From Eledone cirrhosa (taxonomy: Eukaryota), in assembly GCA_964016885.1 (NCBI GenBank), contig OZ024754.1:31992001-32056000 (forward strand): 64,000 bases of DNA, in the 5' to 3' direction. A program made the position numbers and the translations under genes. Of the stretch, positions 21,601 through 62,237 are shown piece by piece. Within the stretch, counting starts at the first letter, position 1. Each line of letters begins with the position of its first letter. The notes below the pieces were generated by a model. It was not told where the DNA came from and ran no database searches. It worked only from the letters and a program-made list of their open reading frames with translations.

Positions 21601-22186
21601 TTACAACTTGTGGGCGGGGGAAGGGGTGCTCTTGTGGGTAGCCACCTCCTCCCCACAGTAAAGTTCAGTTATTGAGGTCAATGTTTTTAACTACAGTTTA
21701 TCAATATAGAAAAAATGTATTGAAATTACATTTGTTGAATCTCTACCTTTCAACTATTTTTATATCAAATTGTTTTCCTGTCATTTCAGAATATCAGATG
21801 ATATTAGCATTAAAGAAGCATCAACGTTCGTTATATTTTAAAGACTAGAGGAAGATGTTATACAGAACAGTTTAACAGATTTTATTTTATGGTAGAACTA
21901 CAGTGAAATATTTCTTCTGATCTGAGAATACGGACCAAATTTCTTTTCTTAACTGTCTGCAGTAAGATCAAGATGACATTGTGTTCTAATTAATCTAGGA
22001 CAAATTTACAAAAACATTTTCCACCTTCAGATATCAACAAAGAACACAGTTGATGGGAATATAGCAGTTGAAATATTGACATCTAAATATCATTATTTTT
22101 ATGTCCACTTTTCCATGATTGTATGGAACAAATACAAGAAAAATGAATTATGTGAGCATTTAAAAGGTTGTTTTTTCCCTAAAGAA

Positions 22187-23650
22187 ATGTCGAAAGAGAT
22201 AGGAACTATATTATACCAATGTAATATCTGTGTTAAATCATTCTCAGAAAGTGATGACTTAATTAACCATAAATGTATCCATACAGGAGAGAAACCATAC
22301 CAATGTGATATCTGTAATATGTTTTTCTCACAAAAAGGGAACTTAACTACTCACAAGCGTATTCATACTGGAGAGAAGCCATATCACTGTGATGTCTGTG
22401 GTAGATCATTCTCTCGAAATCATGATCTAACTGTTCACATACGTATTCATACAGGAGAGAAGCCATATCACTGTAATATCTGTGGTAAATCATTTTCTGT
22501 ATCTAGTCACTTAACTAAACACAAATACATACATACAGGAGAGAAGCCATATCACTGTGATGTCTGTGATAAATCATTTGCTCGTAGAAATGGTTTAACT
22601 TATCACAAACGCGTTCACACAGGAGAAAAACCACATCAGTGTGATATCTGTGATAAATCATTCTATACACGAACTCACTTAACCAAACATGAACGTACTC
22701 ACACAGGGGAGAAACCATATCATTGTGGCATCTGTAGTAAATCATTCTCTTCAGAAAGTACATTAACTACTCACAAATACATTCATACAGGAGAAAAGCC
22801 ATATCACTGTGATGTCTGTGATAAATCATTCTCTATACCTAGTAACTTAACTAAACACAAATACATTCATACAGGAGAGAAACCATATCATTGTGATGTC
22901 TGTGGTAAATCATTCTCTCGGTCAAATGTACTTGCAGCCCACAAACGTGTTCATACAGGAGAGAAACCATATCATTGTGATATCTGTCGTAAATCATTCT
23001 CTCGGGCAAATGTATTAACAGCTCACAAACGTATTCATACTGGTGTGAAACCACATCACTGTGATATTTGTGGTAAATCATTCTATCGTAAGTGTGAAAT
23101 AACTGTACACAAACGTATTCATACAGGAGAGAAGCCATTTTCTTGTAATACTTGTGGTAAATCATTCTCTCAGATTAGTCCGTTAATAGTTCACAACCGT
23201 ATTCATACTGGAGAGAAACCATATAGCTGTGATATCTGCGGTAAATCATTCTCTCAGTATATTGAATTAAGTACACACAAATATAAACATACAGGTGTAA
23301 AACCATATCATTGTGATATATGTGATAAATCATTCTCTCACAATGGTGAATTAAAGGTACACAAACGCGTTCATACAGGAGAGAAGCCATATCTCTGTGA
23401 TATCTGTGGAAAATCATTTACTGAAGGACATACATTAATCACTCACAAATTTATTCATACCGGAGAGAAACCATATCACTGTGATGACTGTGGTAAATCA
23501 TTCTCTGTAAAAGGTAACTTAACTAAACACAAACGTGTTCATACAGGAGAGAAACCATATCACTGTGATATGTGTGGTAAATCATTCTCTCAAAGAAATA
23601 CATTAAATACTCACAAACGCATTCATACAGGAGAAAGAGAACACAACTGA
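22187..23650 (+). CDS. ZNF-3: C2H2 zinc-finger protein, 17 fingers
   Basis: Start placed at MSKEIGT (22187) by homology to ZNF-5 and ZNF-7; the track start 22076 is TTG, and an in-frame ATG also exists at 22115. Confidence 0.93.
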
Positions 23651-24022
23651 TATGTTTGGTAAATTATTCTCTTCAAGAAGTAACTTTACTATACACAAAT
23701 ACATTGATAAAGGAGTGAAACCACATCACTTAAATATGTATGGTAAATCATTCAATGTAGCTAGTCACTCAATATACAAGAGAGAAGCCATGTCATTGTG
23801 ATGTGTGTGATAAATGTTTCCCTCTGCCTAATCACTTAACTAAACACAAATGTATTCTTACAAGAGAGAAGCCATATCACTGTGATGTATGTGGTAAATC
23901 ATTCTCATGGTTATATATGTCTGTCATACAAGATGTCAACATTTTCTGAATATTTTGTCATCTCAGCTGTGAATCCAAGTATCTTGGGATCACTGAGAAT
24001 ATTTGTAACAAATTGAAAGATA

Positions 24023-24028
24023 AATAAA
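24023..24028 (+). terminator. Conserved poly(A) signal of the cassette (paralogs at 34514, 43749, 50886, 55579)
   Basis: TAAATAAAA(C/T)TGGTTT plus a U-rich downstream element at the equivalent position after ZNF-3 to ZNF-7. Confidence 0.7.
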
Positions 24029-24117
24029 ACTGGTTTGTTCTTAAAATATTCTTTTGTTATTTTATATGTTGAACATCAAACTAAAACTTGTGATGACAAC
24101 ATAAGCTATAGAATTCA

Positions 24118-24632
24118 CATCATCATCATTTTATATTTGTTTTTCCATTATTGTATAGTTTGGACGGTTCTTTTCCAGGACAGCCCCACTCCACTTGTGT
24201 TCCTTCATTATTTCTTCTGTGAAATTCAGCATTTTGGGATCAACTCTCACCATTTCTTTCATGGTCTTCCTCTACTGTAGCTTCCTTCCACTAAGATCAC
24301 TTTTCACTTCTTCACCCTACGATTATCATCCATACATGTCACATGCCCCATAGCAATATAATTTTCTGTCTCTTGCATGTACACTACATCTAATTCCTCT
24401 TATATCCAGTTTTTCTCTCACCCCATCATAGACATTAGCATTACATATCCATAACTGTCCAGTTTTCCCATATCCTCTGCATTCACTGCCCAAGTCTCAC
24501 TACCATGCAACTTTGCACACAACTATCAAACAGCTTGCTTTTCCTTCATGCAGAGAAATCTTTTGTTGTCCACATGGGTTGTAGTTCCTTGAGGTCTTTC
24601 TATCCTGTTCTTATTCTAGCTGCTATACTGAA
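24118..24632 (-). mobile_element. Old RTE 3' fragment duplicated with the cassette (also ~34610-34965, ~43845-44100, ~50980-51470, ~55670-55940)
   Basis: CACTGCCCAAGTCTCACTACCATGCA (reverse = LHGSETWA-like) and TCCTGTTCTTATTCTAGCT match the RTE at 10470-10620. Confidence 0.7.
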
Positions 24633-24655
24633 GCATTGTCAATATTTTATTGCAG

Positions 24656-25100
24656 AAGGGCAGTGGACTGGCAAAACTAGTATAGCATCGGATAAAATAC
24701 TACTGTGGCATTTGTTTTGACACTTTACTTTCTGAGTTCAAATACTGCCTTGGTCAACTCTACCTTTGCATAGAGTTACGGCCCTTTATGGTCTGAGTTC
24801 AAATCCCACCAAGGTTAACTTTGGCGTTCATCCTTATGGGGTCAGTAAAATAAAGTACCAATCAAGTACTAGGGCTGATTTAATCAACTTTTCCCTTCCC
24901 CCAAATTGGCTGGCCTTGTGCCTAAATTAGAAATCATTATTCTATTGGCGGAGGATTGGCAGTATCGGTAGAGGGTCCGACGCCATGCATTGCAACATAG
25001 AGTTACGGCCATTTACGGTCTGAGTTCAAATCCCGCTGAGGTTAACTTTGCCTTTCATCCTTACGGGGGTCAATAAAATAAAGCAAAATAGAAACAATTA
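24656..25100 (+). mobile_element. Cluster of three Nin/Deu-like SINEs
   Basis: Repeated TCTGAGTTCAAAT; two copies continue with GGTTAACTTTG...TTCATCCTTA...AATAAAG. Confidence 0.8.
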
Positions 25101-26577: not shown

Positions 26578-26675
26578 TTATCACATGACTTAAACTAACT
26601 AATGAAAATCGAATAATTCTGCCGTGCTTGTATTCCGGAAGTACCTATTTTCTGCATTTTGTTTACGCTTCAAAG
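26578..26675 (+). promoter_or_regulatory. ZNF-4 promoter (TCACATGAC, CTAAT variant, CCGGAAGT 26635-26642) with candidate donor AAG|GTATA at 26675
   Basis: Paralogous motif set; acceptor TTTTAG|AATATCAGATA at 30089/30090. Confidence 0.7.
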
Positions 26676-26972
26676 GTATATTTTATTTTAATATTTTAGT
26701 ATTACTTCAATCTTATATACCCACGTTTGTGTTGGTTGTCAAATGTATGTTTTCTACATATACGCATTGTTTATAATGATATCCGTTGTGGTATATAATT
26801 ATGGATGTTGTAGTTTATAGCTAATATATGTCTGTGTGTGTGTCATCAGCGATGCTGTGGTTTGTGAATATAAATATATACAAAAGCATTTTATTCATAT
26901 ACATATATACAAAAGTATTTTTATCATTAAATAGAAGTACATACATATAATGAATTAATTATTGCTAGGAAC

Positions 26973-29793: not shown

Positions 29794-30447
29794 GAACACA
29801 CACACTGGTTGAGTTCCGCTGATAGTTTCTTAAATCAATTAATTGTCAAAGTCCTTTCATCACAGCCTGAGACCTTATCAATGACTCTTGCCCTCTGTGT
29901 CTTCATCCACACTTTATCTTTTTTTAGAAGCAGAAAAGATAAAGTAAGTAGTTAAGAAAAGTTACTTGTTTAGGTAAATGTTTATATCTATAGTTTATCA
30001 ATATAGAAAAAAAAATGTACTAAAATTTCCTTTGTGGAATCTCTACTTTTTTACTATTTGCTTGAACTCATATTGTTTCTCTATTTTAGAATATCAGATA
30101 ATATTGGCATTAAACAAATGTTCACATCAGAAGCATCATCAATATTTACCAGCTTTATGCAAGAATTCTTGTTGAATATTTCATCTGAACTGAGAATACT
30201 GTCAAAATTTCTCTTCTTCACTCTCTGCAATATGGACACAAGGGGTTTTTAATCTATTTAAACTTGGATAAGTTTACAAAAGAATTTGTTACATTTTTCA
30301 GATATGAACACAGAACACAGCTAATGGGAATATAACAGTAGAAATATTTCCATCTACATATCATTATTTTTATGTCCACTTTTCCATGCTTGCATGGAAT
30401 GAATACGAAAAAAAAAAATGTGAGCAACTTAAAAGATGTCAAAATAG

Positions 30448-33644
<3,197 letters not shown>

Positions 33645-34295: not shown

Positions 34296-35289
34296 GACTC
34301 ACAAATACATTTGTAAAGGAGTGAAACCACATAAGTGATGTGGTAAATCATTCTCTGTACCTAGTCACTTAACTAAACACAAATATGTTCATACAAAAGA
34401 GAAGTCATCACAGTGATGTGTATGATAAATTATTTCTGGTTGAACATATGAGTCCCAGTGTCATGGGATCTATTTGAATCCCTTTGTGAATATTTGTAAT
34501 GAACTGAAAAATAAATAAAATTGGTTTATTCTTAAATTATTCTTTTGTTATTTTCTTATATGTTGAACATCAAACTAAAACTTGTGATGACAACATAAGC
34601 AATAGAATTCACATCATTTTATATCCATTTTTCTATTTTTACATAATTTAGCTGGCTCTTTTCCAGCACAGCCTCTCTCCATCCATCACCTTTCTATGTC
34701 ATCTCTTCTGCAAAGTGCAGGATTTTTAGATCAACTTTTACTATATATATTAAAGTCTTTCTCTGTCTTCCACTACTGTAGCCCCCTTCTACTAGGATTC
34801 CTTGACATTCTTTACCCTACTATCATTTTCTATGTACATCACATGTCCATAGCATGCAATCTTGTCTTACATGCACACAGCTGATTCTTCTTACACCTAG
34901 GTTTTCTATCAGCTCATCATTTGTGTACATAAACATTACACATGCTGGACACATCCTTTGCATGTCCTAAGATTGAAGAGTCTTCTCTACACTATTTTTT
35001 CTCCATTCTATCACCAGTTAGCTAGAATGAAGCTGTTACATTCAGTTAGTCCATAAAAACACCCCAAATGTCAGATCTACCACCAATAAAGTTGGTGGAG
35101 ACAGTGTCAAATTGACTTCAATATTTTACATTATATAGTTTGGGAATTGCTACGCCTGTTAAAGTGCCACAGTGGGAGGGAATATATGACTGCCAACTTC
35201 TAAATATAAGGCTTACAAAAAAATTAAAGGTAGCACCTAATTAAAACTTCATTTATATAAATTTTATTTTTATAGAATCATACGTTCAT

Positions 35290-35800: not shown

Positions 35801-36077
35801 TTTTATCACATGACTTAAAGCAACCAATGAAAATGTAAGAATTTCATTTCTGCCAATTCTTTATTCCGGAAGTAGGTAATTTCACCATTTTTGTTTACTT
35901 TAATCAAAAAGCAGGTGCTTGTTATACCTTATCAAGAAACAAACTTTAATTGAAAAATACTTTGTCGGCTTTTCTTTTTAAAAAAATGTATTATACTGTG
36001 TAGCTAAGTAAACGTTATGAGTTTTACATACGACTGTCTTTTACATAGTTTTTCCTATACCAAATTTCATGCACAAG
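35801..36077 (+). promoter_or_regulatory. ZNF-5 promoter (TCACATGAC, CCAAT, CCGGAAGT 35866-35873) and exon 1 to donor AAG|GTATA
   Basis: Paralog conservation; acceptor TTTTTTGCAG|AATATCAGATG at 40413/40414. Confidence 0.8.
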
Positions 36078-40225: not shown

Positions 40226-40853
40226 TGACATTGTTGTCTTTTGGGAAGGTCATGTTACCAGTCAACACACCTCCAATTAAGATTTGCTTCAGTTTCGTTA
40301 TAAATTAGGTAATTAATTAATTGGATAATCAGTCAACTAATGAAGTAATTGAATAAAGTCCTTTCATCACACACTGAGACCTGATTGATGACATTTGTTT
40401 CTCTTTTTTGCAGAATATCAGATGACATTGGCATTAAAGGATTCTTTACACAAGAAGAATTATCAATATTTATCATCTTTTAAAGACTAAAGGAAGAAGA
40501 TATACTGAACAAGATATAACCTTTATGTTTATAAAAAATTGATGGTAGAATTACTGCGAAATATTTTTCTTATTGGAGAATACTGGCAAAACTTTTCTTC
40601 TTCACTGTCTGCAATCTGGACAAGATGATTTTGTATTCTAATTAAACTATATTTACAAAAGAATTTTCCACCTTCTTTAGATATCAACAAAGAACACAGT
40701 AGAAATATTGACATCATTATTTTTATGTCCACTTTTCCATGATTGGATCCCATTGGTAATGAAGCTTTCATCCTGTTGGTAAGAACAGATACAGGAATAA
40801 TGAATTATGTGGACATCTGAAAAGTGCATTCTGTTTTTTAATCCCCTAAAGAA

Positions 40854-42653
40854 ATGTCGAAAGAGATAGGAACAACATTATACCAATGTAATATCTGTGA
40901 TAAATCGTTCTTTGTAAGTGATGATTTAATTAACCATAAATGTATCCATACAGGAGAGAAACCATACCAATGTGACATCTGTAATATGTCATTCACTCGT
41001 AAAGGGAGCTTAACTTCTCACAAGCATATTCATGCAGGGAAGAAGCCATATCACTGTGATGTCTGTGGTAAATCATTCTTACAAACACGAGACCTAACTG
41101 TTCATAAGCGTATTCATACAGGAGAGAAACCATATCACTGTGATATTTGTAGTAAATCATTTGCTCATGGAAATGCTTTAACTACTCACAAGCGTATTCA
41201 CACAGATGAAAAACCGTATCACTGTGATATCTGTGGTAAACCATTCAATACAAGAACCCATTTAACTACTCACAAGCGTACTCATACAGGAGAAAGACCA
41301 TATCACTGTGAAATTTGTAGTAAATCATTCTTTTCAGGAGACACATTAACTAAACACAAACGTACTCATACAGGAGAGAAACCATATCATTGTGACATTT
41401 GTGGTAAATCATTTTCATCAAGGAGTAGTTTGAATACTCACAAATATATTCATACAGGAGAGAAGCCATATCACTGTGATATCTGTAACAAATCCTTCTC
41501 TGTACCTGGTTACTTAACTAAACACAAATATGTACACACAGGAGAGAAGCCATATCACTGTGATGTGTGTGGTAAATCATTCTCTGAAAGTACTGAATTA
41601 ACTATACACACACGTGTTCATACAGGAGAGAAACCATATCATTGTGATATCTGTGGTAAATCATTCTCTCGAACAAATGTATTAACAGCTCATAAACGTA
41701 TTCATACAGGTCTGAAGCCACATCACTGTGATATCTGTGGTAAATCATTCTATCGAAGGGGTGAAGTGACTGTACACAAACGTATTCATACCGGAGAGAA
41801 ACCATTTTCTTGTGAAACTTGTGGTAAAGCATTCTCTCAGCTTGGTCCTTTAATAGTTCACAACCGTATTCATACTGGAGAGAAACCATATCACTGTGAT
41901 ACATGTGGTAAATTATTTGCTCGATATACTGAATTAACTATACACAAATATAAACATGCAGGTGTAAAACCGTATCAATGTAATATCTGTGATAAATCAT
42001 TTATTCGCAGTGGTGCATTAAATATACATAAACGTATACATACTGGAGAGAAACCATATAATTGTGATATCTGTGATAAATCATTCATTACACAAAGTAA
42101 CTTAAATATGCATGAGCGTATTCATTCAGGAGATAAACCATATCCTTGTGACATCTGTGGTAAATCATTCTTCCACAGTGGTGAAGTAAATGTACACAAA
42201 CGTATTCATACAGGAGAAAAGCAATATCTCTGTGATATCTGTGGTAAATCATTTACTGAAAAAAGTACTTTAAACACTCACAAACTTGTTCATACAGGAG
42301 AGAAGCCATATCATTGTGATGACTGTGGTAAAACATTTTCTGTAAAAAGTAACTTAACTAAACACAAACGTGTTCATACAGGAGAGAAACCATATCACTG
42401 TGATATGTGTGATAAATCATTTGCTCAAATAAATACATTAACTACTCACAAACGCATTCATACAGGACAGACACCATATGAATGTGATAGCTGTGGTAAA
42501 TCATTCTCTCTAAATAGCTATTTGACCAAACACAAACGCAGTCATACAGGAGAGAAACCATATCACTGTGATACCTGTGGTAAATCATTCTCTCAAAAAA
42601 ATACATTAACTACTCACAAACGCATTCATAAAGGAGTTCAATCACCTGACTGA
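40854..42653 (+). CDS. ZNF-5: C2H2 zinc-finger protein, 21 fingers
   Basis: Intact 599-aa [15 protein letters not shown]...HKGVQSPD. Confidence 0.95.
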
Positions 42654-44441: not shown

Positions 44442-46272
44442 TGTGTTGAAAAGTTTTTTTTTTATTAAAAGACTTAATGGTCCCACAAATACCCATTGGC
44501 CTCTCTGGGTGACCAGTTAGACTGACCCAAACCACCAGAATACTCGTGACCGGTCTACACCAGTGATAACATCTGGAAGGTGATTTTATCCTCCTCTGCT
44601 GGTTCTGGTGCGGGGATTGAGGATCTATGAACTCAGCACCTCAAAGATGATAACTCCTTATCAGCCAGTGATGCTGGACTCAAGATTTTTGGAGAGTCTG
44701 ACTCAGTTTGTGAATTAGTTCTCTTCAAAGAACGTTCTCTCCTATATATCCATCCATTGTTCTTTGGTGTGAAACTATTCAGACACACAAAATCCAACGG
44801 AGACCTGCACCCCATTGCGGTTGGTTGTGCACTTCATTGTCATTCTGTCAAGGTGTGTTTGTTGTTGGCCTCTGGTTCACTGTCGGTGGAATTTCCCCTA
44901 TCCAGTTAGGTATGGGTACGGAGCTGGGGTGTGAGGCTGCTGCCCTCACTACCAGAAGCTTTATCAACTTGCCCTCCAAGTCCCCCAGGGTCATCCTCAA
45001 ACTTGACCTCAAGAATGCCTTTAATTCCATCAGCCACAATATCATCCTCAGCTCAGTAAGGGAGAGGGTCCCACAACTCTACTACTTTCTTTGGCAGGCT
45101 TATCAGGAACCCTCCTACCTCTCTTTTGGTGATCAAATCATCATTTCTACCTCAGGAGTTCAAAAGGGTGACCCACTTGGGCCTGTTTTGTTTGTACTGG
45201 GCATTGATGACATCACCAAGATGGGGGTTAAGCTGGATTTAAATGTTTGGTATCTTGATGCTTGTTTGGGGGACCTCTGAATAGGGTTCTTACAACTGCA
45301 AATACAATGATTGAAGAGCTTGGTTGTCGGGATCTCCAGGTCAATAGCTCCAAATGTAAGATCTGGATTCTCAACCACCCAGCTTCTCAACATCAGACGA
45401 CAGACCTGTTTGCAGAGTCCTTCCCTTCCATTATGGTCCATCCCTTGTTGGCATGGAGCTCATTTGGACCCCCAATTACAGACCTAGCTTTGGAATTAAA
45501 TTTCCAATCCAAGATGGTTAGCTTTGAGTAATTATTGAAGAACATTGAGGTAATTGAGCCCCATAAAGGTTTTTTATACTCAGCAATTACCTATCGATTC
45601 CTAAGCTTCTATATATGCTCAGGGTTAGCCCATCTCACAGATTTTCATCGTGTCCAACTCTTTGACAACCTAATCTTCGGGAGACTCGAGTGCTTGCCCA
45701 AAGTCAGACCCTCTCCAGAGTCTCGTGGTCAGGCTGCGTTGCCCAAGCGATTTAGATGCCTTGGTCTACGTAAATGTGCGTCCCACTCTCTCCCTTGTTT
45801 CCTTTCCTCTACCCATGCTTGCTCCACCCTGGTGGGCAACATCCTCTCTTTCCCAACAGGGAGATGGATGAAGCTCTCCTACGATGGAATGAGCTGGGTT
45901 TGTCTGCTCCTGACATGTTAGAGGACAAACAGAGACAGAGTTTGGGACAACATACTTTCGAGGGCCACTTTTGACTCTCTCTTCGACCAGTCAGATCAGT
46001 TCTCAACGTGCTGCTTCCTGGTGCTAGCTTCAAATACTCAGGAGACTGGGTTGCTGCCCTACTTATCTTGGATGAGCTTTGTATATCCATTGCTCTCAGA
46101 GTGGGAGCCAATGTCTGTACGAGTCTGAAATGTCAGTGTGGTAGGCTCCTCGACTCCACAAGTCTTCAAGGCCTGTCTTGCAGTCTGAATGCTGGTTGCT
46201 TCACATATCACAGAGCTAAACCTCATCATCAAGAGAGCTTTGGCCTGGGCAAACATCCCCACGGATAAAAAA
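44442..46272 (+). mobile_element. CRE-like non-LTR retrotransposon fragment (RT plus Cys/His knuckle)
   Basis: PIAVG, GCEAA, LKLDLKNAFNSI, GVQKGDPLGP, WYLD, CQCGRLLD...GLSC, with frameshifts; absent from paralogous units. Confidence 0.85.
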
Positions 46273-46318: not shown

Positions 46319-46524
46319 TTTATCACATGATTTAAAGCAACCAATGAAAATGTAAGAATTTCATTTCTGCCTGGTCATTATTCCGGAAGTAGGTAATCTC
46401 CCATTTTTGTTTACTTTCTTTTCTTAAAAAAAATGTATTACACTGTTTAGCTAAGTAAACGTAATAAGTTTTACATATGACAGTCTTTTACATAGTTTTT
46501 CCTATACCAAATTTCATTGACAAG
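46319..46524 (+). promoter_or_regulatory. ZNF-6 promoter (TCACATGA, CCAAT, CCGGAAGT 46383-46390) and exon 1 to donor AAG|GTATA
   Basis: Paralog conservation; acceptor TTGCAG|ATTATCAGATG at 48284/48285. Confidence 0.8.
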
Positions 46525-47677: not shown

Positions 47678-48679
47678 GTATATCATTATCATCATTTTAT
47701 GTGTGATCTGAGTTCAAATCCCGCCAAGGTTAACTTTGCCTTTCATCCTTACGAGGTCGATAAAATAAAGTACCAGTAATGTACTGGATAATTGCTGGCC
47801 TTGTGCCGAAAGTAGAAATAATTATCATCATTTTATGTGTGTGAGTATATGTTTGTGTGTATAAAACTGAAGTGAAACTCAACTGGAATGTGTGTGTTCT
47901 AACTGGCAGAATGACCCTACAAAATATAACATTGTGATAGGTTATCTACTGGACTCAACATTATTTTTACAACTTTGAATTTGAAAAAATTTTAAGTATT
48001 TTTAACTGAAATTCATCAACTTAGTTATAACCTACACCTAGGAAAATGTATGTCTGAAAAATTTCATTACAACATATGAATTCTTAATCTTTTCGTTCGA
48101 ATATTTCTATTAAAAGATACTGTCCATGATTTTGAATTAATTTTGAAAATAATCAAATCATGGAGTTATCAAGTAATTAACTAATTCATTAATTGATTGG
48201 ATAATCAATCGACTAATTAATTGACAAAGTCCTTTCATCACACACTAAGACCTTATTGATGACTCCTGTTTCTCTATATTGCAGATTATCAGATGACATT
48301 GGCATTAAAGGATTCTACACATCAATATTTATCATCTTTTAAAGACTAAAGGAAGAAGATATACTGAACAAGATATAACCTTTATTTTTATAAAAAATTG
48401 ATGGTAGAATTACTGCAAAATATTTTTCTTATTGGAGAATACTGGCAAAACTTTTCTTCTTCACTGTCTGCAATCTGGACACGATGATTTTGTATTCTAA
48501 TTAAACTATATTTACAAAAGAATTTTCGACCGTTAGATATCACAAAAAAAAACACAGTAGAAGTATCGACATCATTATTTTTATGTCGACTTTTCCATGA
48601 TTGCATGGAATAGATACAGGAATAATGAATTATGTGGACATCTGAAAAGTGCATTCTGTTTTTTTAATCCTCTAAAGGT

Positions 48680-50227
48680 ATGTCGAAAGAAAAAGGAACA
48701 ACATTATACCAATGTAACATCTGTGCCAAATTATTCTTTGTAAGTGATGACTTAATTAACCATCAATGTATTCATACAGGAGAGAAACCATATTACAGTG
48801 ATGTCTGTAGTAAACCATTCTTACAAAGTCATGAACTAACTGTTCATAAGCATATTCATACAGGAGTGAAACCATATCACTGTGATATTTGTGGTAAATC
48901 AGTGTCTTCAGGGAGCAATTTAACTAAACACAAACGCACTCATACAGGAGAGAAGCCATATCATTGTGATATCTGTGGTAAATCATTCTCTCGAAATTAT
49001 GATGTGACTGTTCACAAACGTATTCATACAGGAGAGAAGCCATATCACTGTAATATCTGTGACAAATCATTCTCTGTATCTAGTCACCTAACTGCTCACA
49101 AATATATTCATACAGGGAAGAAGCCTCATCATTGTGATGTGTGTGGTAAATCATACTCTATAAGTACTGAATTGACTATACATAAACGTATTCATTCAGG
49201 AGAGAAACCATATCATTGCGATATCTGTGGTAAATCATTCTCTCGAAATTATGATCTGACTGTTCACATACGTATTCATACAGGAGAGAAGCCATATCAC
49301 TGTGATATCTGTAATAAATCATTTTCAGTATCTAGTCAGTTAACTAAACACAAATATGTTCATACAGGAGAGAAGCCTTATCACTGTGATGTGTGTGGTA
49401 AGTCATTCTCTAGAACTACTGAATTAACTATACACAAACGTGTCCATACAGGAGAGAAACCATATTGCTGTGATATTTGTGGTAAATCATTCTCTCGAAC
49501 AAATACATTAATTGATCACAAACGTGTTCATTTAGGTGTGAAACCATATCACTGTGATATTTGTGGTAAATCATACTATCGAAGTTACGACATGACTCTC
49601 CATAAACGTATTCATACCGGAGAAAAACCATTTTCTTGTGAAACCTGTGGTAAATCATTCACTCATAGTAGTCCGTTAATTGTTCACAACCGTATTCATA
49701 CTGGAGAGAAACCATATCACTGTGATATCTGTGGTAAATCATTTTCTCAACATGTTGAATTAAGTACACACAAATATAAACACACAGGTGTGAAACCATA
49801 TGAATGTAATATCTGTGGTAAATCATTCATTCAAACTGCTGTGTTAACGATTCATAAACGTATTCATACAGGTGAGAAACCATATTATTGTGATATATGT
49901 GGTAAATCATTCTCTCAAAGTAGTGCAGTAAATGTACACAAACGTATTCATTCAGGAGAAAAGCAATATCTCTGTGATATCTGTGGTAAATCATTTACTG
50001 AAAGAAGTAGTTTAATTACTCACAAACTTATTCATACAGGAGAGAAACCATATTACTGTGATGACTGTGGTAAATCATTTTCTGTAAAAAGTAACTTAAC
50101 TAAACACAAACGTGTTCATAGTGGAGAGAAACCATATCACTGTGACATGTGTGATAAATCATTCTCTCAAAGAAGTACATTAACTACTCACAAACACATT
50201 CATAAAGGAATTCAACCACCAAACTGA
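48680..50227 (+). CDS. ZNF-6: C2H2 zinc-finger protein, 18 units (finger 2 has Cys to Ser)
   Basis: Intact 515-aa ORF; internal 3-finger duplication (RNYD/VSSH/ISTE and RNYD/VSSQ/RTTE). Confidence 0.94.
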
Positions 50228-52170
50228 TATGAGTGGTAAGTCATTCTCTCTACCTAATCTTTTAACTAAATAAATTCATTCAAGATAGAAGCTATATCAC
50301 TGTTATGTGTGGTATATCATTCTCTTCAAGAAACAATTCACCTAAACATCATCATCCTTCGAACTGGTTGGTTGGAATACTCTCATCAATTTCTCTCCAA
50401 ACTCTATGATCCTGCAGTGCTCTTCCCAGTTCTCCAAGGTGGATTCCTGAATATCTGGATCAGTCATTTTTCATTAATTATTAATTACTGAGGGAGGATT
50501 GGAGAATTCATTTCCAGATTGTATCAAGTTGGTTACATACTTCCCATGATAAAGTTTTCCACATGTTAAAGTCTTTTTGTACATTTTTCTCCATTTGTAG
50601 ATACAGACTCACACGTAGAGTCAATCTCACACAAATTATGTCAAATATACACACTACTGATGGTTGACTCACAAATACATTTGTAAAGGAGTGAAACCAC
50701 ATAAGTGATGTGGTAAATCATTCTCTGTACCTAGTCACTTAACTAAACACAAATATGTTCATACAAAAGAGAAGCCATATCACAGTGATGTGTATGATAA
50801 ATTATTTCTGGTTCGACATATGAGTCCCAGTGTCATGGGATCTAATTGAATCACTTCGTGAATATTTGTAATGAACTGAAAGATAAATAAAATTGGTTTA
50901 TTCTAAAATTATTCTTTTGTTATTTTATATGTTGAACATCTAACTAAAACTTGTGATGACAACATAAGCAATAGAATTCACATCATTTTATATCCATTTT
51001 TCTATTTTTACATAATTTAGCTGGCTCTTTTCCAGCATAGCCTCTCTCCATCCATCACCTTTCTGTCATCTCTTCTGCAAAGTGCAGGATTTTTAGATCA
51101 ACCTTTACTATATCTACTAAGGTCTTTCTCTGTCTTCCACTACTGTAGATTCTACTAGGATTCCTTGGCATTCTTCACCCTACCACCATCTTCTATGTAC
51201 ATCACATGTCCATAGCAGTGCAATCTTGTCTTACATGCACACAGCTGATTCTTCTTACACCTAGGTTCTTTATATCAGCTTATCATTTATGTACGTACAC
51301 ATGCTGGACACATGCTTTGCATGTCCTCTTCATTTACTCCCTAAGTCTCACTACCATGCAGTATTGCACTTCATACATTGATATCATGCAGCCAGTCTTT
51401 TGCTCAACAAGAAAGTCTTTGTTGCTCCCCCGAAATGTTTCCATCCTGTTTTTATTCTAGCTATTATACTGACAGTGAGGGAATATATGAAAGATGAAAT
51501 ATCAGAAATGTCAATATTTTATTACAAAAGTCAGTTGTTATTGAAATGAAAATTATACTAAGATTGAAGAGTCTTCTCTACACTATATTTTCTCCATTCT
51601 ATCACCAGTTAGCTAGCATGAAGCTGTTACATTCAGTTAGTCAATAAAAACACCCCAAATGTCAGATCTACCACCAATAAAGTTGGTGGAGACAGTGTCA
51701 AATTGACTTCAATATTTTACATTTTATAGTTTGGGAATTGTTGTGAGTTGAGTTAATGCTAGGCCTGTTAAAGTGCCACAGTGGAAGGGAACGTACAAAT
51801 GCAAACTTCTAAATGTAAGGCTGGATAAGAACAACATACCAATGTAATATCTGTGGTAAATTATTCTTTGTAAGTCATAACTTAAAGGTACAACCTAATT
51901 AAAACTATGTTAATATATTTGTATTGTGTATAGAATCATAAGTTCACATATTAAAGATATAATTAAAATCTGCTATTTCCGACGAGCTAAGAAGAGAGTT
52001 TTTGCGTCACCTCACAACATACTAGAAATAGCAGCCAACAATGAAAGTTGAATTGTCCTTCATGAACTTTAAATAACAAAAGTTTAGATAGATTTTCAGA
52101 CGAATAAAAAAGCTGTACAGTTATAAAAATTGAAGTCGTTGTAGTAGTAACAGACATATTGTGCGGTAGG

Positions 52171-52396
52171 TTAAAGCAACCAATGAAAATGTAAGAATTT
52201 CATTTCTGCCGGATCAATATTCCGGAAGTAGGTGATTTCACTATTTTTGTTTACTTTAATTCATAAATACTTTCTCTGCTTATTTCTTCTTTTCTTAAAA
52301 AAAAATGTATTATACTATTTAGCTAAGTAAACGTTATTAGTTTTACATACGACTGTCTTTTACATAGTTTTTCCTATACCAAATTTCATTAACAAG
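52171..52396 (+). promoter_or_regulatory. ZNF-7 promoter (E-box deleted; CCAAT; CCGGAAGT 52222-52229) and exon 1 to donor AAG|GTATA
   Basis: Paralog conservation; acceptor TTACAG|AATATCAGATG at 53327/53328. Confidence 0.8.
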
Positions 52397-53630
52397 GTAT
52401 AATTTTAATACTTTACTCTCGTTCTAAAATATCGATGTCTTAGTTGTCAGATTCTGTTTTGACACTGTTTATGTTGTAGATACATTTTTCAAATATATAA
52501 AAAAAAATAAAGAAAATCGCTCTAAATGTGTTGTGTTGGAGGTATGGAATAATTTTCTTATAATACTTCTATTTGAGGATCGTCGGGCTTGCCAGCCACC
52601 TCAAAATACTTGATCGATGCACAAATATATATATATCATCATCGTTTAACTTCTGCTTTCCCTGTTATTTAGGGTTTGACATGTCTACATAGACCAAATC
52701 AGTACAAGCGGACAAACCAGTGTATAAGGTGCATTAATCATGTAGATCATCAACATTAGTGAGGTTGTTGCTCCGATGACAACTGAATAGCCCTCTCAAA
52801 CCTTTTCAGCACTTTCTTTAGTGGGGTGCTCTTCCTATGTATGTATTTGTATATATATCATTATCATCATTTTACGTCCGTTTCTGGACAATGTGCGTGT
52901 GAGTATATGTTTTTTTTATAGCTGAAGTGAAACTCAACTGGAAAATGTGTGTGTTCTGACTGGCAGAATGACCTTCCCAAAATATAACATTGTAATGTTT
53001 TCTACGGGAGTTAATATTATTTGAACAACTTAGAATTTGAAAAAAGAAAACATTGTATTTTTAACTGAAATCCCTCAACTTAAGTATAACCTACACCTTG
53101 GAAAATGAATGACTGAAAAATTTCATCAAAACCTTTTCATTGGAATATTTCTAATAAAAAAACTGTCCATGATTTTGTATTAATTTTGAAAATAATGAAG
53201 TCAGATATTTATTAATCAAGTAATCCATTAATTGGATAATCAGTCAACTAATTAATTGACGTATTCATAAAGTCCTTTCATCACACACTGAGATCTTATT
53301 AATGACTCTTGTTTCTTTATATTACAGAATATCAGATGACATTGGCATTAAAGAAGTTACTGTGAAATATTTTTCTGATCTGAGAATACTGGCAAATCTT
53401 TTCTTCTTCACTCTCTGCAATCTGGAAAAATGATTTTCTATTTTAATTAAACTATATTTACAAAGGAATTTTCCACCTTCTTTAGATATGAACAAAGACT
53501 GCTGTTGGTGGGAATAGCAGTAGAAATATTGATATTAGCATAATCATCATTATGTCCAATTTTCCATGATTGCATTGAACAAATACAGGAATAATGAAAA
53601 GTGCATTCTGTTTTTTAATCGCCTAAAGAA

Positions 53631-55346
53631 ATGTCAAAAGAGATAGGAACAATATTATACCAATGTAATACCTGTGCTAAATCATTCTTTTTGAGCGATG
53701 ACTTAATTAACCATAAATGTATTCATAGAGGAAAGAAGCCATATCACTGTGATGTCTGTGGTAAATCATTCTTACAAACACGAGACCTAACTGTTCATAA
53801 GCGTATTCATACAGGAGAGAAACCATACCACTGTAATATTTGTGGTAAATCATTTGCTCATGGAAATACTTTAACTACTCACAAGCGTATTCACACAGGA
53901 GAAAAACCACACCACTGTGATATTTGTGGTAAATCATTCAATACAAGAACTCATTTGACTCAACATAAACGTACGCATACAGGAGAAAGACCATATCACT
54001 GCGAGATCTGTGGTAAATCATTCTCTTCAGGGGACACTTTAACTAAACACAAACGTACTCATACAGGAGAGAAACCATATCACTGTAACATCTGTGGTAG
54101 ATCATTCTCTTCAGGAAGTACTTTAAATACTCACAAATATATTCATACAGGAGTGAAGCCATATCACTGTGATATCTGTAACAAATCATTCTTTGTACCT
54201 AGTCACTTAACTAAACACAAATATGTACACACAGGAGAGAAGCCTTATCATTGTGATGTGTGTGGTAAATCATTCTCTAGAACTACTGAATTAACTATAC
54301 ACACACGTGTTCATACAGGAGAGAAACCATATCACTGTGATATCTGTGGTAAATCATTCTCTCGGACAAATGTATTAACTTCTCACAAACGTATTCATAC
54401 AGGTCTCAAACCACATCACTGTGATATCTGTGGTAAATCATTCTATCGCAAGTGTGAAATAATTGTACATAAACGTATTCATACTGGAGAGAAACCATTT
54501 TCTTGTGAAACCTGTGGTAAATCATTCTCTCAAAATAGTCAGTTAATTGTCCACAACCGTATTCACACTGGTGAGAAACCATATCACTGTGATACATGTG
54601 GTAAATCATTCTCTCGATATACTGAATTAACTATACACAAATTTAAACACACAGGTGTAAAACCGTATCGGTGTAATATCTGTGGTAAATCATTCATTCA
54701 AAGTGGTGTGTTAACGATTCATAAACGGAGTCATACTGGAGAGAAACCATATGGTTGTGATGTTTGTCGTAAATCGTTCACTGTACGAGCTAACTTAGAT
54801 ATACATAAACGTATTCATACAGGTGAGAAACCATATCATTGTGATATTTGTGGTAAATCATTCTCTCAAAGTAGTGAAGTAAATGTACACAAACGTATTC
54901 ATTCAGGAGAAAAGCAACATCTCTGTGATATCTGTGGTAAATCATTTACTGAAAGAAGTAGTTTAATCACTCACAAACTTGTTCATACAGGAGAGAAACC
55001 ATATTACTGTGATGACTGTGGTAAATCATTTTCTGTAAAAAGTAACTTAACTAAACACAAACGTGTTCATACAGGAGAGAAACCGTATCATTGTGATATG
55101 TGTGATAAATCATTTGCGCAAATAAATACATTAAGTACTCACAAACGTATTCATACAGGAGAGAAACCACATGAATGTGATATTTGTGGTAAATTATTCT
55201 CTTTACATAGTCATTTAACGAAACATAAACGCAGTCATACAGGAGAGAAACCATATCACTGTGATACCTGTGGTAAATCATTCTCACAAAGAAATACATT
55301 AACTACTCACAAACACATTCATAAAGGAATTCAACCACATAACTGA
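53631..55346 (+). CDS. ZNF-7: C2H2 zinc-finger protein, 20 fingers
   Basis: Intact 571-aa [15 protein letters not shown]...HKGIQPHN. Confidence 0.95.
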
Positions 55347-57144: not shown

Positions 57145-60100
57145 TACCTCTCCAGACATCAAGGTATTCTCTCTACCCTTCCAGACATGAAGGCATTCTC
57201 TCTACCCTTCCAGACATCAAGATATTGTCTTTACCCTTCCAGTCACCAAGGTATTCTCTCTACCCTTCCAGACATCAAGGTATTCTCTTTACCCTTCCAG
57301 ACATGAAGGTATTCTCTCTACCCTTCCAGACACGAAGGTATTCTCTCTACCCTTCCAGACATCAAGGTATTCTCTCTACCCTTCCAGATATGGAGGTATT
57401 CTCTCTACCCTTCCAGACATCAAGATATTCTCTCTACCCTTCCAGACATGAAGGTATTCTCTCTACCCTTCCAGACATGAAGGTATTCTCTCTACCCTTC
57501 CAGACATGAAGGTATTCTCTCTACCCTTCCAGACATGAAGGTATTCTCATTACCCTTCCAGACATGAAGGTATTCTCTCTACCCTTCCAGACATGAAGGT
57601 ATTCTCTCTACCCTTCCAGACATGAAGGTATTCTCTCTACCCTTCCAGACATGAAGGTATTCTCTCTACCCTTCCAGACATCAAGATATTCTCTCTACCC
57701 TTCCAGACATGAAGGTATTCTCATTAACCTTCCATACATGAAGGTATTCTCTCTACCCTTCCAGACATGAAGGTATTCTCTCTACCCTTCCAGACATGAA
57801 GGTATTCTCATTACCCTTCCAGACATGAAGGTATTCTCTCTACCCTTCCAGACATCAAGATATTCTCTCTACCCTTCCAGACATGAAGGTATTCTCATTA
57901 CCCTTCCAGACATGAAGGTATTCTCTCTACCCTTCCAGACATGAAGGTATTCTCTCTACCCTTCCAGACATCAAGATATTGTCTTTACCCTTCCAGACAT
58001 GAAGGTATTCTCTCTACCCTTCCAGACATGAAGGTATTCTCTCTACCCTTCCAGACATCAAGATATTCTCTCTACCCTTCCAGACATGAAGGTATTCTCA
58101 TTACCCTTCCAGACATGAAGGTATTCTCTCTACCCTTCCAGACATGAAGGTATTCTCTCTACCCTTCCAGACATGAAGGTATTCTCATTACCCTTCCAGA
58201 CATGAAGGTATTCTCTCTACCCTTCCAGACATCAAGATATTCTCTCTACCCTTCCAGACATGAAGGTATTCTCTCTACCCTTCCAGACATGAAGGTATTC
58301 TCATTACCCTTCCAGACATGAAGGTATTCTCTCTACCCTTCCAGACATCAAGATATTCTCTCTACCCTTCCAGACATGAAGGTATTCTCTCTACCCTTCC
58401 AGACATGAAGGTATTCTCTCTACCCTTCCAGACATCAAGATATTCTCTCTACCCTTCCAGACACGAAGGCATTATCTCTACCCTTCTAGACATCAAGATA
58501 TTGTCTTTAACCTTCCAGTCACCAAGGTATTCTCTCTACCCTTCCAGACATGAAGGTATTCTCTTTACCCTTCCAGACATCAAGGTATTCTCTCTACCCT
58601 TCCAGACATGAAGGTATTCTCTCTACCCTTCCAGACATGAAGGTATTCTCTCTACCCTTCCAGACATCAAGATATTGTCTTTACCCTTCCAGACACGAAG
58701 GTATTCTCTCTACCCTTCCAGACATCAAGGTATTCTCTCTACCCTTCCAGACATGAAGGTATTCTCTCTACCCTTCCAGACATGAAGGTATTCTCTTTAC
58801 CCTTCCAGACATGAAGGTATTCTCTCTACCCTTCCAGACATGAAGGTATTCTCTTTACCCTTCAAGACATGAAGGTATTCTCTCTACCCTTCCAGACATC
58901 AAGGTATTCTCTCTACCCTTCCAGACATCAAGGTATTCTCTCTACCCTTCCAGACATGAAGGTATTCTCTCTACCCTTCCAGACATCAAGATATTCTCTC
59001 TACCCTTCCAGACATGAAGGCATTCTCTCTACCCTTCCAGACATGAAGGTATTCTCTCTACCCTTCCAGACATGAAGGTATTCTCTCTACCCTTCCAGAC
59101 ATGAAGGTATTCTCTCTACCCTTCCAGACATGAAGGTATTCTCTCTACCCTTCCAGACATCAAGGTATTCTCTTTATCCTTCCAGTCACCAAGGTATTCT
59201 CTCTACCCTTCCAGACATGAAGGTATTCTCTTTACCCTTCCAGACATGAAGGTATTCTCTCTACCCTTCCAGACATGAAGGTATTCTCTTTACCCTTCCA
59301 GACATGAAGGTATTCTCTCTACCCTTCCAGACATGAAGGTATTCTCTCCACCCTTCCAGACATCAAGGTATTCTCTCTACCCTTCCAGACATGAAGGTAT
59401 TCTCTCTACCCTTCCAGACATCAAGGTATTCTCTCTACCCTTCCAGACATCAAGATATTCTCTCTACCCTTCCAGACACGAAGGCATTCTCTCTACCCTT
59501 CTAGACATCAAGATATTGTCTTTACCATTCCAGTCACCAAGGTATTCTCTCTACCCTTCCAGACATGACGGTATTCTCTTTACCCTTCCAGACATGAAGG
59601 TATTCTCTCTACCCTTCCAGACACGAAGGTATTCTCTCTACCCTTCCAGACATCAAGGAATTCTCTTTACCTTTCCAGACATGAAGGTATTCTCTCTACC
59701 CTTCCAGTCACCAAGGTATTCTCTCTACCCTTCCAGACATGGAGGTATTCTCATTACCCTTCCAGACATGAAGGTATTCTCTCTACCCTTCCAGACATGA
59801 AGGTATTCTCATTACCCTTCCAGACATGAAGGTATTCTCTTTACCCTTCCAGACATCAAGGTATTCTCTCTACCCTTCCAGACATGAAGGTATTCTCTTT
59901 ACCCTTCCAGACATCAAGGTATTCTCTCTACCCTTCCAGACATGAAGGTATTCTCTTTATCCTTCCAGACATCAAGGTATTCTCTTTATCCTTCCAGACA
60001 TCAAGGTATTCTCGCTAACTTTCCAGACATGAAGGTATTGAAGGTATTCCCTCTAACCTTCCAGACATAAAGGTATTGTCTTTACCCTTCCAGACATCAA

Positions 60101-60250
60101 GATATTGTCTCTACCCTTCCAGACATAACATATTGTCTTTACCCTTCCAAACATCAAGATATTCTCTCTACCCTTACAGACATCAAGATATTCTCTCTGC
60201 CCTTCCAAACGTTAAGGTATTCTCTCTGCCTGAATACCCTTCCAGACATC
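57145..60250. repeat. Satellite 3: 29-bp unit CCTTCCAGACATGAAGGTATTCTCTCTAC, roughly 105 copies
   Basis: Head-to-tail repeats without spacers; degenerate at the right edge. Confidence 0.98.
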
Positions 60251-60689
60251 AGTACAACTGGTTTTGAAATAATGATTCAAATAGAATATATATTCCGTTA
60301 CATATAACTGTATCTGTTCCTTTGTTGTAAGTACCCCGTCACACACACCGCCTTCTTTTAAATCCAATTTCTGGTTGTAGCAGCAGCATGAATAGAGAAA
60401 ATAACTTCGTTTCGTCATTTGTATTTATGTTTCGACTTTTGATTTTCTGTCTGGAAATTTCAAATTTTAAAACTTTAATGTAACCCTTAAATAGGATATT
60501 GCCCCATGTATTCTACTTATCTAACTGTATATCTAATATCTTCCTATCATTTTATTGTCACAGCTTGCTCTGTCATATATATCTACAAAAGACCTAATAG
60601 CCACACAATAAAGACGATAAAGAAGATACACCAAAGAATTATAAAATTGAACTATTCCTCGTTGCATAATACCTAACCCCTCTAAATTG

Positions 60690-60901
60690 ACCAATGAAAT
60701 TCCAATAATTTCATTTCTGCGGTGCTTTTATTCCGGAAGTACCAATATGTTTACTTTAATTATTAATCACATTTTTGTCTGTTTTATTTATTCGTCTCTT
60801 TAAAAAAAAAACGTATTAAACCGTGAAGCTAAGTACAAGTATTTAATTCTATATACGACAGTCTTCTACACAATTTTACTCTACCTAATTCCATTCACAA
60901 G
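60690..60901 (+). promoter_or_regulatory. ZNF-8 promoter (CCAAT, TTTCATTTCTGC, CCGGAAGT 60733-60740) and exon 1 to donor AAG|GTATA
   Basis: Paralog conservation; acceptor TTTCAG|AATATCAGATG at 61808/61809. Confidence 0.78.
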
Positions 60902-60944
60902 GTATAATTCATTTTAATATTTTACCGTTACATCAATCTATAAT

Positions 60945-61143
60945 ATTGGTTTCTGATTTAAGCACAAGGCCAACAACTTTGGGGGAAGAGAAAGTCGATT
61001 AAATCGATCTCTGTGCATTACTGGTACTTTATTCTATCGACCCCGTAAGGATGAAACGGAAAGCTAACTCAGATCGTAAAGGGCCGTAACTCAATATGAT
61101 AAAGCATATCCGACGCTCTACCGATACTGCCAATCCACCAGCC
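60945..61143 (-). mobile_element. Nin/Deu-like SINE in the ZNF-8 intron
   Basis: GCACAAGGCCA...CTGGTACTTTATTCTATCGACCCCGTAAGGATGAAA...TACTGCCAATCCACC. Confidence 0.8.
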
Positions 61144-62237
61144 TGCAGCACTCACCAATTTATAGTTTTAACGCCTGTCCTGGTTGTCAAATTTATGTTT
61201 TGTAAGTTGTTTAGTATATTCCATTTTATGAACATCTTGTACATATAAACACAATTTATAGAATAAATAAGATTGACAAAAGAAATCAATAAAATTTGAA
61301 GGACGAAAAAAAAAACGAGATGATATGCACACTTAATTACATAATACAACGCAAGGTTGGTGTTTACCTCGAGGGAAGCTAAGACGGCATTGCGGTGGGT
61401 GATAACGAGGCCAAGGTGCTTGAATAGCTAAGATATCACACGAGGAGTATCACTTGATATATGTTGGAATAACTACACAGCCGCACTAGGAACATCTGAT
61501 ACTTTAAGGCGAGGTGATGGTGAGGCTAACGTGCTGTAGTAGCCAAGTACACTTACAAAGAACAACACTTGATATTTCAGTAATGGGAGTTGCCAGGTTA
61601 TGTTTCTCATGCACCCTCTTGGCTATTCCAATGTATATCAAATGATGTTTTTTAAAGCATCTTTATATTGATAAACTTCAATTGCCACTAAATTCAACAG
61701 CAAAGTTCAGGTAAATGTTTTTATATACAGGTTATCAATATAGAAAAAATTTAAAATTTCCATTATTTTAACTATTCTTTATATCATATATTGTTTCTTT
61801 TCTTTCAGAATATCAGATGACATTGGCATTAAAGAATTCTTCACATCAGAAGCATTATCAATATTTATCGTCTTTTAAAGACTGAAAGAAAATGTTATAC
61901 AGAACAAGATATAACCCTCATATTTATATAAATCTATGGTAGAGTTGCTGTGAAATATTTCTTATGAACTGAGAATATTGTTAAAATTTCTCTTCTTCAC
62001 TGGACATGATGATTTTGTTTTTTACATGAACTAGGATAAATTTGCTAAAGAATGTTCTACATTCTTTAGATATCAATAAAGAATACAGTTGAAGAGAATA
62101 GGAGTAGAAATATTGACATCAACACAGGAATATGTAAAACAAGAAAAATATCTATATATTGTGATGAGAGAAGAAATTATTTTAAAAAAATATATATATT
62201 TGAGAAATTTAAAGGATTGATTTCATTTCCTAAAGAG

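What the first reader, a model, noticed from the sequence alone, without database searches (positions are those of the whole stretch)
21798..61885. Frame-conserved uORF/micropeptide at the start of exon 2 across paralogs
Seen: the ATG 8 nt after the acceptor opens MILALKKHQRSLYFKD* (21798-21848, TAG), MTLALKDSLHKKNYQYLSSFKD* (40422-40490, TAA), MTLALKDSTHQYLSSFKD* (48293-48349, TAA) and MTLALKNSSHQKHYQYLSSFKD* (61817-61885, TGA). Length differences are 12 and 18 nt, both in frame, and the stop codon varies yet stays a stop. ZNF-7 and ZNF-2 keep the ATG with shorter uORFs; ZNF-4 has ATA instead. Inference: a selected translational brake or micropeptide shared by the cluster. Two in-frame indels alone have about a 1/9 chance, so more paralogs are needed.
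Basis: partly seen in the sequence, partly recalled or inferred. Interest (0 to 1): 0.72.

Follow-up and report, generated by a model that had tools for sequence, protein, structure and literature searches.

The report
Inherited upstream ATG, no conserved micropeptide
The four short reading frames in front of these zinc-finger genes are in the DNA, but among related copies across the genome their length and frame vary freely, so they are likely an inherited by-product of a shared gene leader rather than a selected mini-protein; only the first 17 bases of the likely exon, which include the upstream ATG, change more slowly than the rest.

Summary
The four uORFs are there verbatim. The reading as a frame-conserved micropeptide fails its own test. 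The leader belongs to a genome-wide C2H2 zinc-finger family (354 exact acceptor matches, 0 control). Of 192 distinct leaders, 100 have a 4-codon uORF, 16 reach the shared stop, 46 end elsewhere and 30 lack the ATG at +9. In 47 independent pairs, 11 of 37 indels in the uORF span keep the frame, against 53 of 149 elsewhere in the leader; dN/dS-like ratios are 1.0-1.3, against 0.67 in the fingers. The ninth cluster gene, just outside the window, has a frameshift. What is conserved is the block +1..+17 of the inferred exon 2, which changes at about half the leader rate; the ATG does no better than its neighbours. Splicing is the likeliest cause; an ATG-only translational brake is the main rival. 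No RNA data were found. The scan noted this family's leader and first exon on other DNA, not this uORF.

The parts
21798..21848 (+). uORF, 16 codons, TAG; 18 nt shorter than the 69-nt form
40422..40490 (+). uORF, 22 codons, TAA
48293..48349 (+). uORF, 18 codons, TAA; 12 nt shorter
61817..61885 (+). uORF, 22 codons, TGA
53336..53365 (+). same ATG, 9-codon uORF; a deletion removes the shared stop
13913..13933 (-). same ATG, 6-codon uORF in the minus-strand paralog
30090..30106 (+). exon-start block of the paralog with ATA in place of ATG (30098)
21790..21806 (+). constrained 17-nt block at the start of inferred exon 2 (acceptor CAG directly before; second CAG at +6..+8; ATG at +9)
40414..40430 (+). 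constrained 17-nt exon-start block
48285..48301 (+). constrained 17-nt exon-start block
53328..53344 (+). constrained 17-nt exon-start block
61809..61825 (+). constrained 17-nt exon-start block
18934..19052 (+). ETS-like CCGGAAGT site to inferred exon-1 donor (AAG|GTAT) of the 21790 gene; CCAAT-like box about 40 nt upstream
   Evidence: motif names recalled
26635..26790 (+). same promoter/exon-1 unit for the 30090 gene
35866..36077 (+). same unit for the 40414 gene
46383..46524 (+). same unit for the 48285 gene
52222..52396 (+). same unit for the 53328 gene
60733..60901 (+). same unit for the 61809 gene
22115..23650 (+). C2H2 zinc-finger main ORF from its first in-frame ATG (+326)
30448..32709 (+). 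C2H2 zinc-finger main ORF (+359)
40854..42653 (+). C2H2 zinc-finger main ORF (+441)
48680..50227 (+). C2H2 zinc-finger main ORF (+396)
53631..55346 (+). C2H2 zinc-finger main ORF (+304)
62238..63785 (+). C2H2 zinc-finger main ORF (+430)
12466..13539 (-). C2H2 zinc-finger main ORF (+403), minus strand

Best explanation
The four ORFs are copies of one upstream ATG in the leader shared by several hundred duplicated zinc-finger genes; their peptide and frame are likely unselected, and the ATG likely persists because it sits in a 17-base block at the start of the inferred exon 2 that is likely held by splicing. Shown: one leader family genome-wide; uORF length set by whichever stop comes first (4 codons in about half the copies, 22 when codon 5 is not a stop and no net indel has occurred); no frame bias; no amino-acid constraint; slower change at +1..+17. 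Inferred: the exon structure, that the block serves 3' splice-site recognition, and that the ATG (C at -3, a weak context by recalled Kozak rules) is mostly scanned past as one of several upstream ATGs.
For: Family size: 282 and 354 exact matches to two acceptor patterns, controls 1 and 0. Census of 192 distinct leaders: 100 four-codon, 16 shared stop, 46 other, 30 no ATG at +9; in the set anchored on intron sequence only, 59, 8, 17 and 21 of 105. Indels in 47 independent pairs: 11 of 37 in frame in the uORF span, 53 of 149 in the rest of the leader, 24 of 49 in the coding N-terminus (Fisher P 0.57 for the first two). dN/dS-like 1.29 (codons 2-7) and 1.04 (last 13 codons); finger control 0.67, P 1.6e-8. 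Neither stop is constrained: 13 observed vs 13.9 expected for the long-form stop, 22 vs 12.5 for codon 5. +1..+17 changes at 0.50 (45/90.4) in intron-anchored, 0.42 (16/38.4) in downstream-anchored, 0.56 (17/30.5) in downstream-only genes. Within the block +3, +4, +6 and +15 are as slow as or slower than the ATG as a whole, and the A of ATG is at 0.78. The 8 cluster leaders carry 6-18 upstream ATGs each, and other short uORFs (MILYSN-type in 5 of 8) look just as 'conserved'.
Against: Under neutral simulation from an extant copy, 4 or more of 7 local genes stay intact in only 1.2-1.8% of runs, and 4 or more of 9 in the well-supported clade in 2-5% (tree). The ATG triplet is slower than all but 2% of 109 control triplets. 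No direct evidence for a splicing role: no RNA run, and why the constraint would reach +17 is not explained. Leaders with a lost 5' end were under-sampled in the downstream-anchored sets (one search kept only profile hits that include the acceptor).
Confidence: 0.6

Rival explanations
1. The upstream ATG itself is selected as a leaky translational brake on a large transcription-factor family; what follows it is irrelevant, and the common 4-codon form would allow reinitiation.
For: ATG changes at 0.37 of the leader rate (6 vs 16.2, P 0.0035) and 0.40 over all 81 pairs (12 vs 30.2), while two other majority ATGs in the leader are at 1.92 and 0.94. ATGs are otherwise depleted in the leader (mean 4.9 vs 8.5 expected in 90 genes). 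C at -3 is kept in 82 of 84. Conserved start with neutral body is the common pattern for uORFs (PMC7889888, sections 11-12 read).
Against: Flanking bases are equally slow (+1..+8 0.39, +12..+17 0.49). The A of ATG is barely constrained (6 vs 7.7) while T and G are (3 vs 8.0, 3 vs 14.4), which a start codon should not show. 21 of 105 intron-anchored leaders lack an ATG at +9 (3 of them have one shifted nearby), among them 9 neighbouring genes with open finger frames that share a deletion of it. The codon-5 stop is not constrained. In downstream-only genes the ATG alone is not significant (3 vs 6.2, P 0.13).
Confidence: 0.25
2. The block is held by something other than splicing or translation, such as a DNA-binding site (+6..+11 reads CAGATG, an E-box by recalled consensus) or use of the second CAG at +6..+8 as an alternative acceptor; or the leader is a decayed coding exon.
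For: C+6, T+10 and G+11 are slow while A+9 is not, as a CANNTG site would give; 10 of the 28 ungapped non-CAGATG variants among 163 leaders keep CANNTG (counted). One copy (L126) has lost the 8 nt so that the ATG follows the acceptor directly.
Against: G+8, a free position in an E-box, is also slow (0.34), and so are +3, +4 and +15, outside the box. No coding signature in either other frame (1.00 and 1.21).
Confidence: 0.1
3. One reading: a 16-22-residue micropeptide, or a uORF of fixed frame and stop, is selected, at least in the clade that includes this cluster.
For: 4 of 7 local genes intact against 0.85-0.99 expected (P 0.012-0.018); both surviving length changes are multiples of 3; 16 of 192 leaders on several contigs reach the same stop; +51..+75 is somewhat slow (0.83 in intron-anchored genes, P 0.036).
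Against: Conditioning on at least 2 intact copies, which is needed to notice the ORF, raises P to about 0.04-0.06 locally and about 0.16 in the 9-gene clade (computed from the histograms), before allowing for the many uATGs and clusters one could have picked. The nearest relative of the 61817 copy (L002, 100/99 support) has a +5 frameshift; L004 has -2; L121/L122 stop early. Intact copies show 22 synonymous and 55 non-synonymous differences, ratio 0.81, P 0.24. Both deletions lie at short direct repeats in sister copies (sequence), and 3-nt indels are common throughout the leader (24 of 149).
Confidence: 0.05

Closest known systems
Canonical uORFs with conserved start codon and neutrally evolving body (Zhang et al. 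2021, PMC7889888; abstract and sections 11-12 read)
   Same: Start codon slower than control triplets, body with dN/dS near 1 and frequent stops and frameshifts.
   Different: Compared here across paralogs of one genome, not orthologs; the ATG cannot be separated from a splice-site-adjacent block; no ribosome data.
Conserved peptide uORFs, CPuORFs (Hayden and Bosco 2008, PMC2276209; abstract and Methods read)
   Same: A short ATG-initiated ORF upstream of a main ORF, not fused in frame with it.
   Different: CPuORFs require conserved peptide in several species and Ka < Ks; this one fails on peptide, frame and stop conservation.
Lineage-specific C2H2 zinc-finger expansions of coleoid cephalopods (PMC12513265, PMC9795677, PMC12988792; passages read)
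   Same: Hundreds of tandem poly-finger genes in clusters on many contigs of a 3.0-Gb genome.
   Different: The taxon is not shown here: three protein searches listed no cephalopod name (120 rows each, no hit), so 'likely octopod' rests on recall of the finger style and on unreviewed scan notes. No occurrence of 'uORF', 'UTR' or 'exon' in the main text of PMC12513265 or PMC12988792.
KRAB- and FiNZ-ZNF genes (PMC10547256; passages read)
   Same: Upstream exon plus one exon holding the finger array.
   Different: There the upstream exon encodes an effector domain; here neither inferred exon 1 nor the first ~370 nt of inferred exon 2 keeps an open frame.

Membership tests
Conserved peptide uORF (CPuORF) / micropeptide | Ka/Ks below 1 in the uORF frame | tested here: not met
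   1.29 and 1.04 in 47 pairs; 0.81, P 0.24 in 6 pairs of intact copies; finger control 0.67, P 1.6e-8
Conserved peptide uORF (CPuORF) / micropeptide | Frame preserved by indels | tested here: not met
   11 of 37 in frame vs 53 of 149 in the rest of the leader; phase 46/39/37 in 122 of 147
Conserved peptide uORF (CPuORF) / micropeptide | Conserved stop position | tested here: not met
   16 of 192 reach the shared stop; triplet changes 13 vs 13.9 expected
Conserved peptide uORF (CPuORF) / micropeptide | Conservation in at least three species | not testable with these tools
   the genome has no relatives in the collection
Regulatory uORF with conserved start only | Start codon more conserved than other leader triplets | tested here: met
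   6 vs 16.2 expected; 2% of 109 control triplets are as slow
Regulatory uORF with conserved start only | Constraint specific to the ATG rather than its surroundings | tested here: inconclusive
   +1..+8 0.39, ATG 0.40, +12..+17 0.49; A 0.78, T 0.37, G 0.21
Regulatory uORF with conserved start only | Lies in the 5' leader of the spliced mRNA | tested here: inconclusive
   conserved promoter-like unit, donor and acceptor and ATG depletion 4.9 vs 8.5; no RNA run listed
Regulatory uORF with conserved start only | Ribosome occupancy and repression of the main ORF | not testable with these tools
   needs Ribo-seq or reporters
Structured RNA element (Rfam or new) | Match to a known family or folding below shuffled sequence | tested here: not met
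   0 Rfam matches in the window; mean z 0.06 for +1..+80 in 78 representatives

The most novel reading that the evidence does not exclude
Several hundred zinc-finger genes of this animal share one selected 17-base cassette at the start of exon 2 whose weak-context ATG sets the translation of the whole family, so that one change in start-codon stringency (or one antisense oligo) would move the output of the entire expansion at once; the 4-codon and 22-codon forms would tune the brake gene by gene.
Probability: 0.12. Interest if true: 0.6.

Novelty: new member of a known kind. Interest (0 to 1): 0.17.

Why it matters
As a micropeptide it does not matter: the apparent frame conservation is what shared ancestry plus a small sample gives. 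The useful residue is the 17-base block at the start of inferred exon 2, which is slow-changing across a family of several hundred genes. It offers one shared target (splice-blocking or translation-blocking oligo) to knock down much of a large zinc-finger expansion at once, as was done for zebrafish FiNZ-ZNFs with a single morpholino (PMC10547256, passage read), and one simple reporter test separates a splicing role from a family-wide translational brake.

Tried and rejected
RNA evidence: no RNA holder listed; the three listed runs of one sample cover introns and show no exon-1 to exon-2 joint among the joints printed (15 rows shown in each call; 571 and 35 more not shown), so they behave as DNA and say nothing on splicing. 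Structured RNA: a possible pairing of +1..+12 with a downstream complementary stretch was tested and rejected (mean z 0.06; ATG paired downstream in only half of 78 representatives); Rfam empty. Coding in the +1 frame (ISDDIGIK-like) was tested and rejected (ratio 1.00). An internal intron from a GT near +124 was considered and dropped because many copies have GC there and the triplet before it is unconstrained. A 15-gene clade seen in a fast tree was not supported as one group; only its 9-gene part was used. One search placed the long-form stop one column off and used a partly biased set; one search replaces it. Protein searches did not identify the taxon. The 2015 octopus genome paper was not held, so its description of gene structure was not seen. 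Literature: 0 papers held 'cephalopod', 'C2H2' and 'upstream open reading frame' together; searches listed nothing on this leader by title or abstract start; supplements were not opened and may bear on exon structure. Look-up of the leader among earlier scan findings by sequence gave nothing. Changes were counted between extant pairs, not along branches, so event counts per lineage remain rough.
Full report
Observation. The four ORFs, their coordinates, peptides and stop codons are exactly as stated, each ATG 8 nt after a CAG. The window holds eight C2H2 zinc-finger genes; a 264-kb map shows the cluster has nine, the ninth about 10 kb beyond the window. Seven window genes share the leader: four with the long uORF, one with 9 codons, one with 6 codons, one with ATA. 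The gene at 1757-2575 has no match to this leader. Contigs of three runs from one sample match 61812-61917 without differences.

Anatomy. Upstream of six plus-strand genes lies a shared unit with a CCAAT-like box, a CCGGAAGT (ETS-like; names recalled) site and a donor-like AAG|GTAT or GTG|GTAT, then 0.9-4.3 kb of intron-like sequence and the acceptor. The first in-frame ATG of the finger ORF lies 304-492 nt into the inferred exon 2 in the eight cluster leaders; family-wide the usual start is a MEN(E/K)L-type N-terminus near +377. This exon structure is inferred: no RNA run was listed and the three runs behave as DNA. The leader is ATG-poor relative to its composition (mean 4.9 vs 8.5 in 90 genes), as expected of a real 5' leader.

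The leader is family-wide. A search with one leader gave 881 candidates, 40 scored. Two exact patterns gave 282 matches (control 1) and 354 matches (control 0); only the first 100 places of each are listed. To avoid selecting for the uORF I sampled by an intron-only anchor, two downstream anchors (one search overlapped these) and tiling of the local cluster. Of 192 distinct leaders held, 100 have a 4-codon uORF (M-T-L-x-stop), 16 reach the shared stop, 46 end elsewhere and 30 have no ATG at +9. In the intron-anchored set alone the counts are 59, 8, 17 and 21 of 105. The long form appears where codon 5 is not a stop and the net indel is a multiple of three.

Test 1, indel phase. In 122 of 147 leaders with an alignable stop region the phase was 46/39/37 (P 0.58); 34 of the 46 have no net change, and 12 of the 88 with a change are in frame. 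These copies are related and a few are misaligned, so I repeated the test on 47 phylogenetically independent pairs from 95 intron-anchored genes (10 of 105 dropped for lacking a finger 300-720 nt downstream): 11 of 37 indels in the uORF span are multiples of three, 53 of 149 in the rest of the leader, 24 of 49 in the coding N-terminus. The ninth cluster gene L002, sister of the 61817 gene (100/99), has a +5 frameshift. The 12- and 18-nt losses lie at short direct repeats in sister copies (inference that slippage set their length).

Test 2, amino-acid constraint. dN/dS-like ratios are 1.29 for codons 2-7 and 1.04 for the last 13 codons; the finger control gives 0.67 (P 1.6e-8) in the right frame only. 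Six pairs of intact long uORFs give 22 synonymous and 55 non-synonymous differences, ratio 0.81, P 0.24 (a small sample that cannot exclude weak constraint).

Test 3, the stop. The triplet is TAA in 103 of 122 copies. Where it is not the uORF's stop, 6 of 17 changed triplets are still TGA or TAG, so stop-to-stop change needs no selection. It changes at the leader rate (13 vs 13.9), and the codon-5 stop changes faster (22 vs 12.5).

Result against my reading. Simulating neutral decay from an extant intact copy along the measured trees, 4 or more of 7 local genes stay intact in 1.2-1.8% of 2000 runs, and 4 or more of 9 in the supported clade in 2-5%. Given that at least two intact copies are needed to notice the ORF, these become about 0.04-0.06 and about 0.16 (from the printed histograms). 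The cluster leaders carry 6-18 upstream ATGs, and other short uORFs recur as often, so there were many chances for such a pattern; gene conversion was not modelled. I leave about 5% for local selection on the ORF.

What is conserved. Positions +1..+17 change at 0.50 (45 vs 90.4) in intron-anchored genes, 0.42 (16 vs 38.4) in downstream-anchored genes and 0.56 (17 vs 30.5, P 0.006) in downstream-only genes, while +18..+50 is at 0.95-1.6. The ATG is part of this block (0.37-0.48) but not its peak: over 81 pairs the rates are A 0.78, T 0.37, G 0.21, with +3 0.12, +4 0.27, +6 0.20 and +15 0.26. Nine neighbouring genes on contig C3 (L239-L247) share a deletion of the ATG and keep open finger frames of 323-413 residues within the fetched stretches. 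The -3 base is C in 82 of 84, a weak context by recalled rules, and it is also the C of a second CAG. No RNA structure signal, no Rfam match, no coding signal in the other frames. Caveat: downstream-anchored leaders were kept only if the profile hit included the acceptor, which favours intact 5' ends.

Mechanism. Most likely (0.6): an inherited, weakly used upstream ATG riding in a splice-site-adjacent block; the peptide is a by-product. Shown: family, census, absence of frame and peptide constraint, slow block. Inferred: exon use, a splicing role, leaky scanning. Rivals: ATG-only brake (0.25), DNA motif or tandem acceptor (0.1), micropeptide (0.05).

Comparison with what is known. It works like the ordinary uORF class described by Zhang et al. 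2021, with conserved start and neutral body (PMC7889888; abstract and sections 11-12 read). It is not a CPuORF by the criteria of Hayden and Bosco 2008 (PMC2276209; abstract and Methods read). The gene family resembles the cephalopod C2H2 expansions (passages of PMC9795677, PMC12513265, PMC12988792, PMC10547256), but the taxon was not established by my searches. I found no paper on this leader in the held library; the 2015 octopus genome paper was not held and no supplements were opened. Unreviewed scan notes on other pieces of this genome describe an untranslated zinc-finger leader and a shared promoter/first exon; none describes this uORF.

Verdict. Observation real, interpretation mostly not supported; ordinary uORF in a shared leader, with a small conserved exon-start block worth one reporter test. 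Interest 0.17.

Noticed in passing
G000:C3:147.62-147.73 Mb (L239-L247): Nine neighbouring zinc-finger genes share a deletion that removes the upstream ATG block after +6 and keep open finger frames; a natural ATG-less control group for expression or ribosome comparisons.
   Followed up: partly
window 40854, 48680, 53631, 62238, 30448: These cluster genes lack the family's usual MEN(E/K)L start in frame and begin at a later ATG close to the first finger, losing about 20 N-terminal residues and gaining upstream ATGs.
   Followed up: partly
L187-L189, L256 (G000:C4:83.05-83.30 Mb): Four copies inside the large 4-codon clade have a 22-codon uORF ending at the same stop but with a different middle, apparently reached independently through loss of the codon-5 stop and a 1-nt deletion.
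   Followed up: partly
window 30448-33626: Longest finger array of the cluster (about 33 units of 84 nt); the frame stops at 32709 and further fingers follow in another frame to 33370, then decayed units.
   Followed up: no
window 34297-34434, 43527-43670, 50667-50810: Decayed finger-like remnants 3' of the coding arrays, shared between paralogs.
   Followed up: no
window 10065-11126 (-) and 44714-45280 (+): Open frames that read like fragments of non-LTR retrotransposon reverse transcriptase regions (label from recall, not searched); the first abuts a TA microsatellite at 11238-11706.
   Followed up: no
window 57151-60227, 3399-6006, 37730-39529: Tandem arrays with 29-nt (about 106 copies), 40-nt and 22-nt units between or within the gene units.
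   Followed up: no
window 1757-2575: First zinc-finger gene of the cluster has a different finger style and no match to the shared leader.
   Followed up: no
L032:1472-2006: One locus holds two copies of the acceptor and exon start about 265 nt apart in front of one finger array.
   Followed up: no
family-wide, intron -100..-41: The intron just upstream of the pyrimidine tract changes 1.4-1.8 times faster than the leader control, so the whole leader may be under mild constraint (alignment noise not excluded).
   Followed up: no
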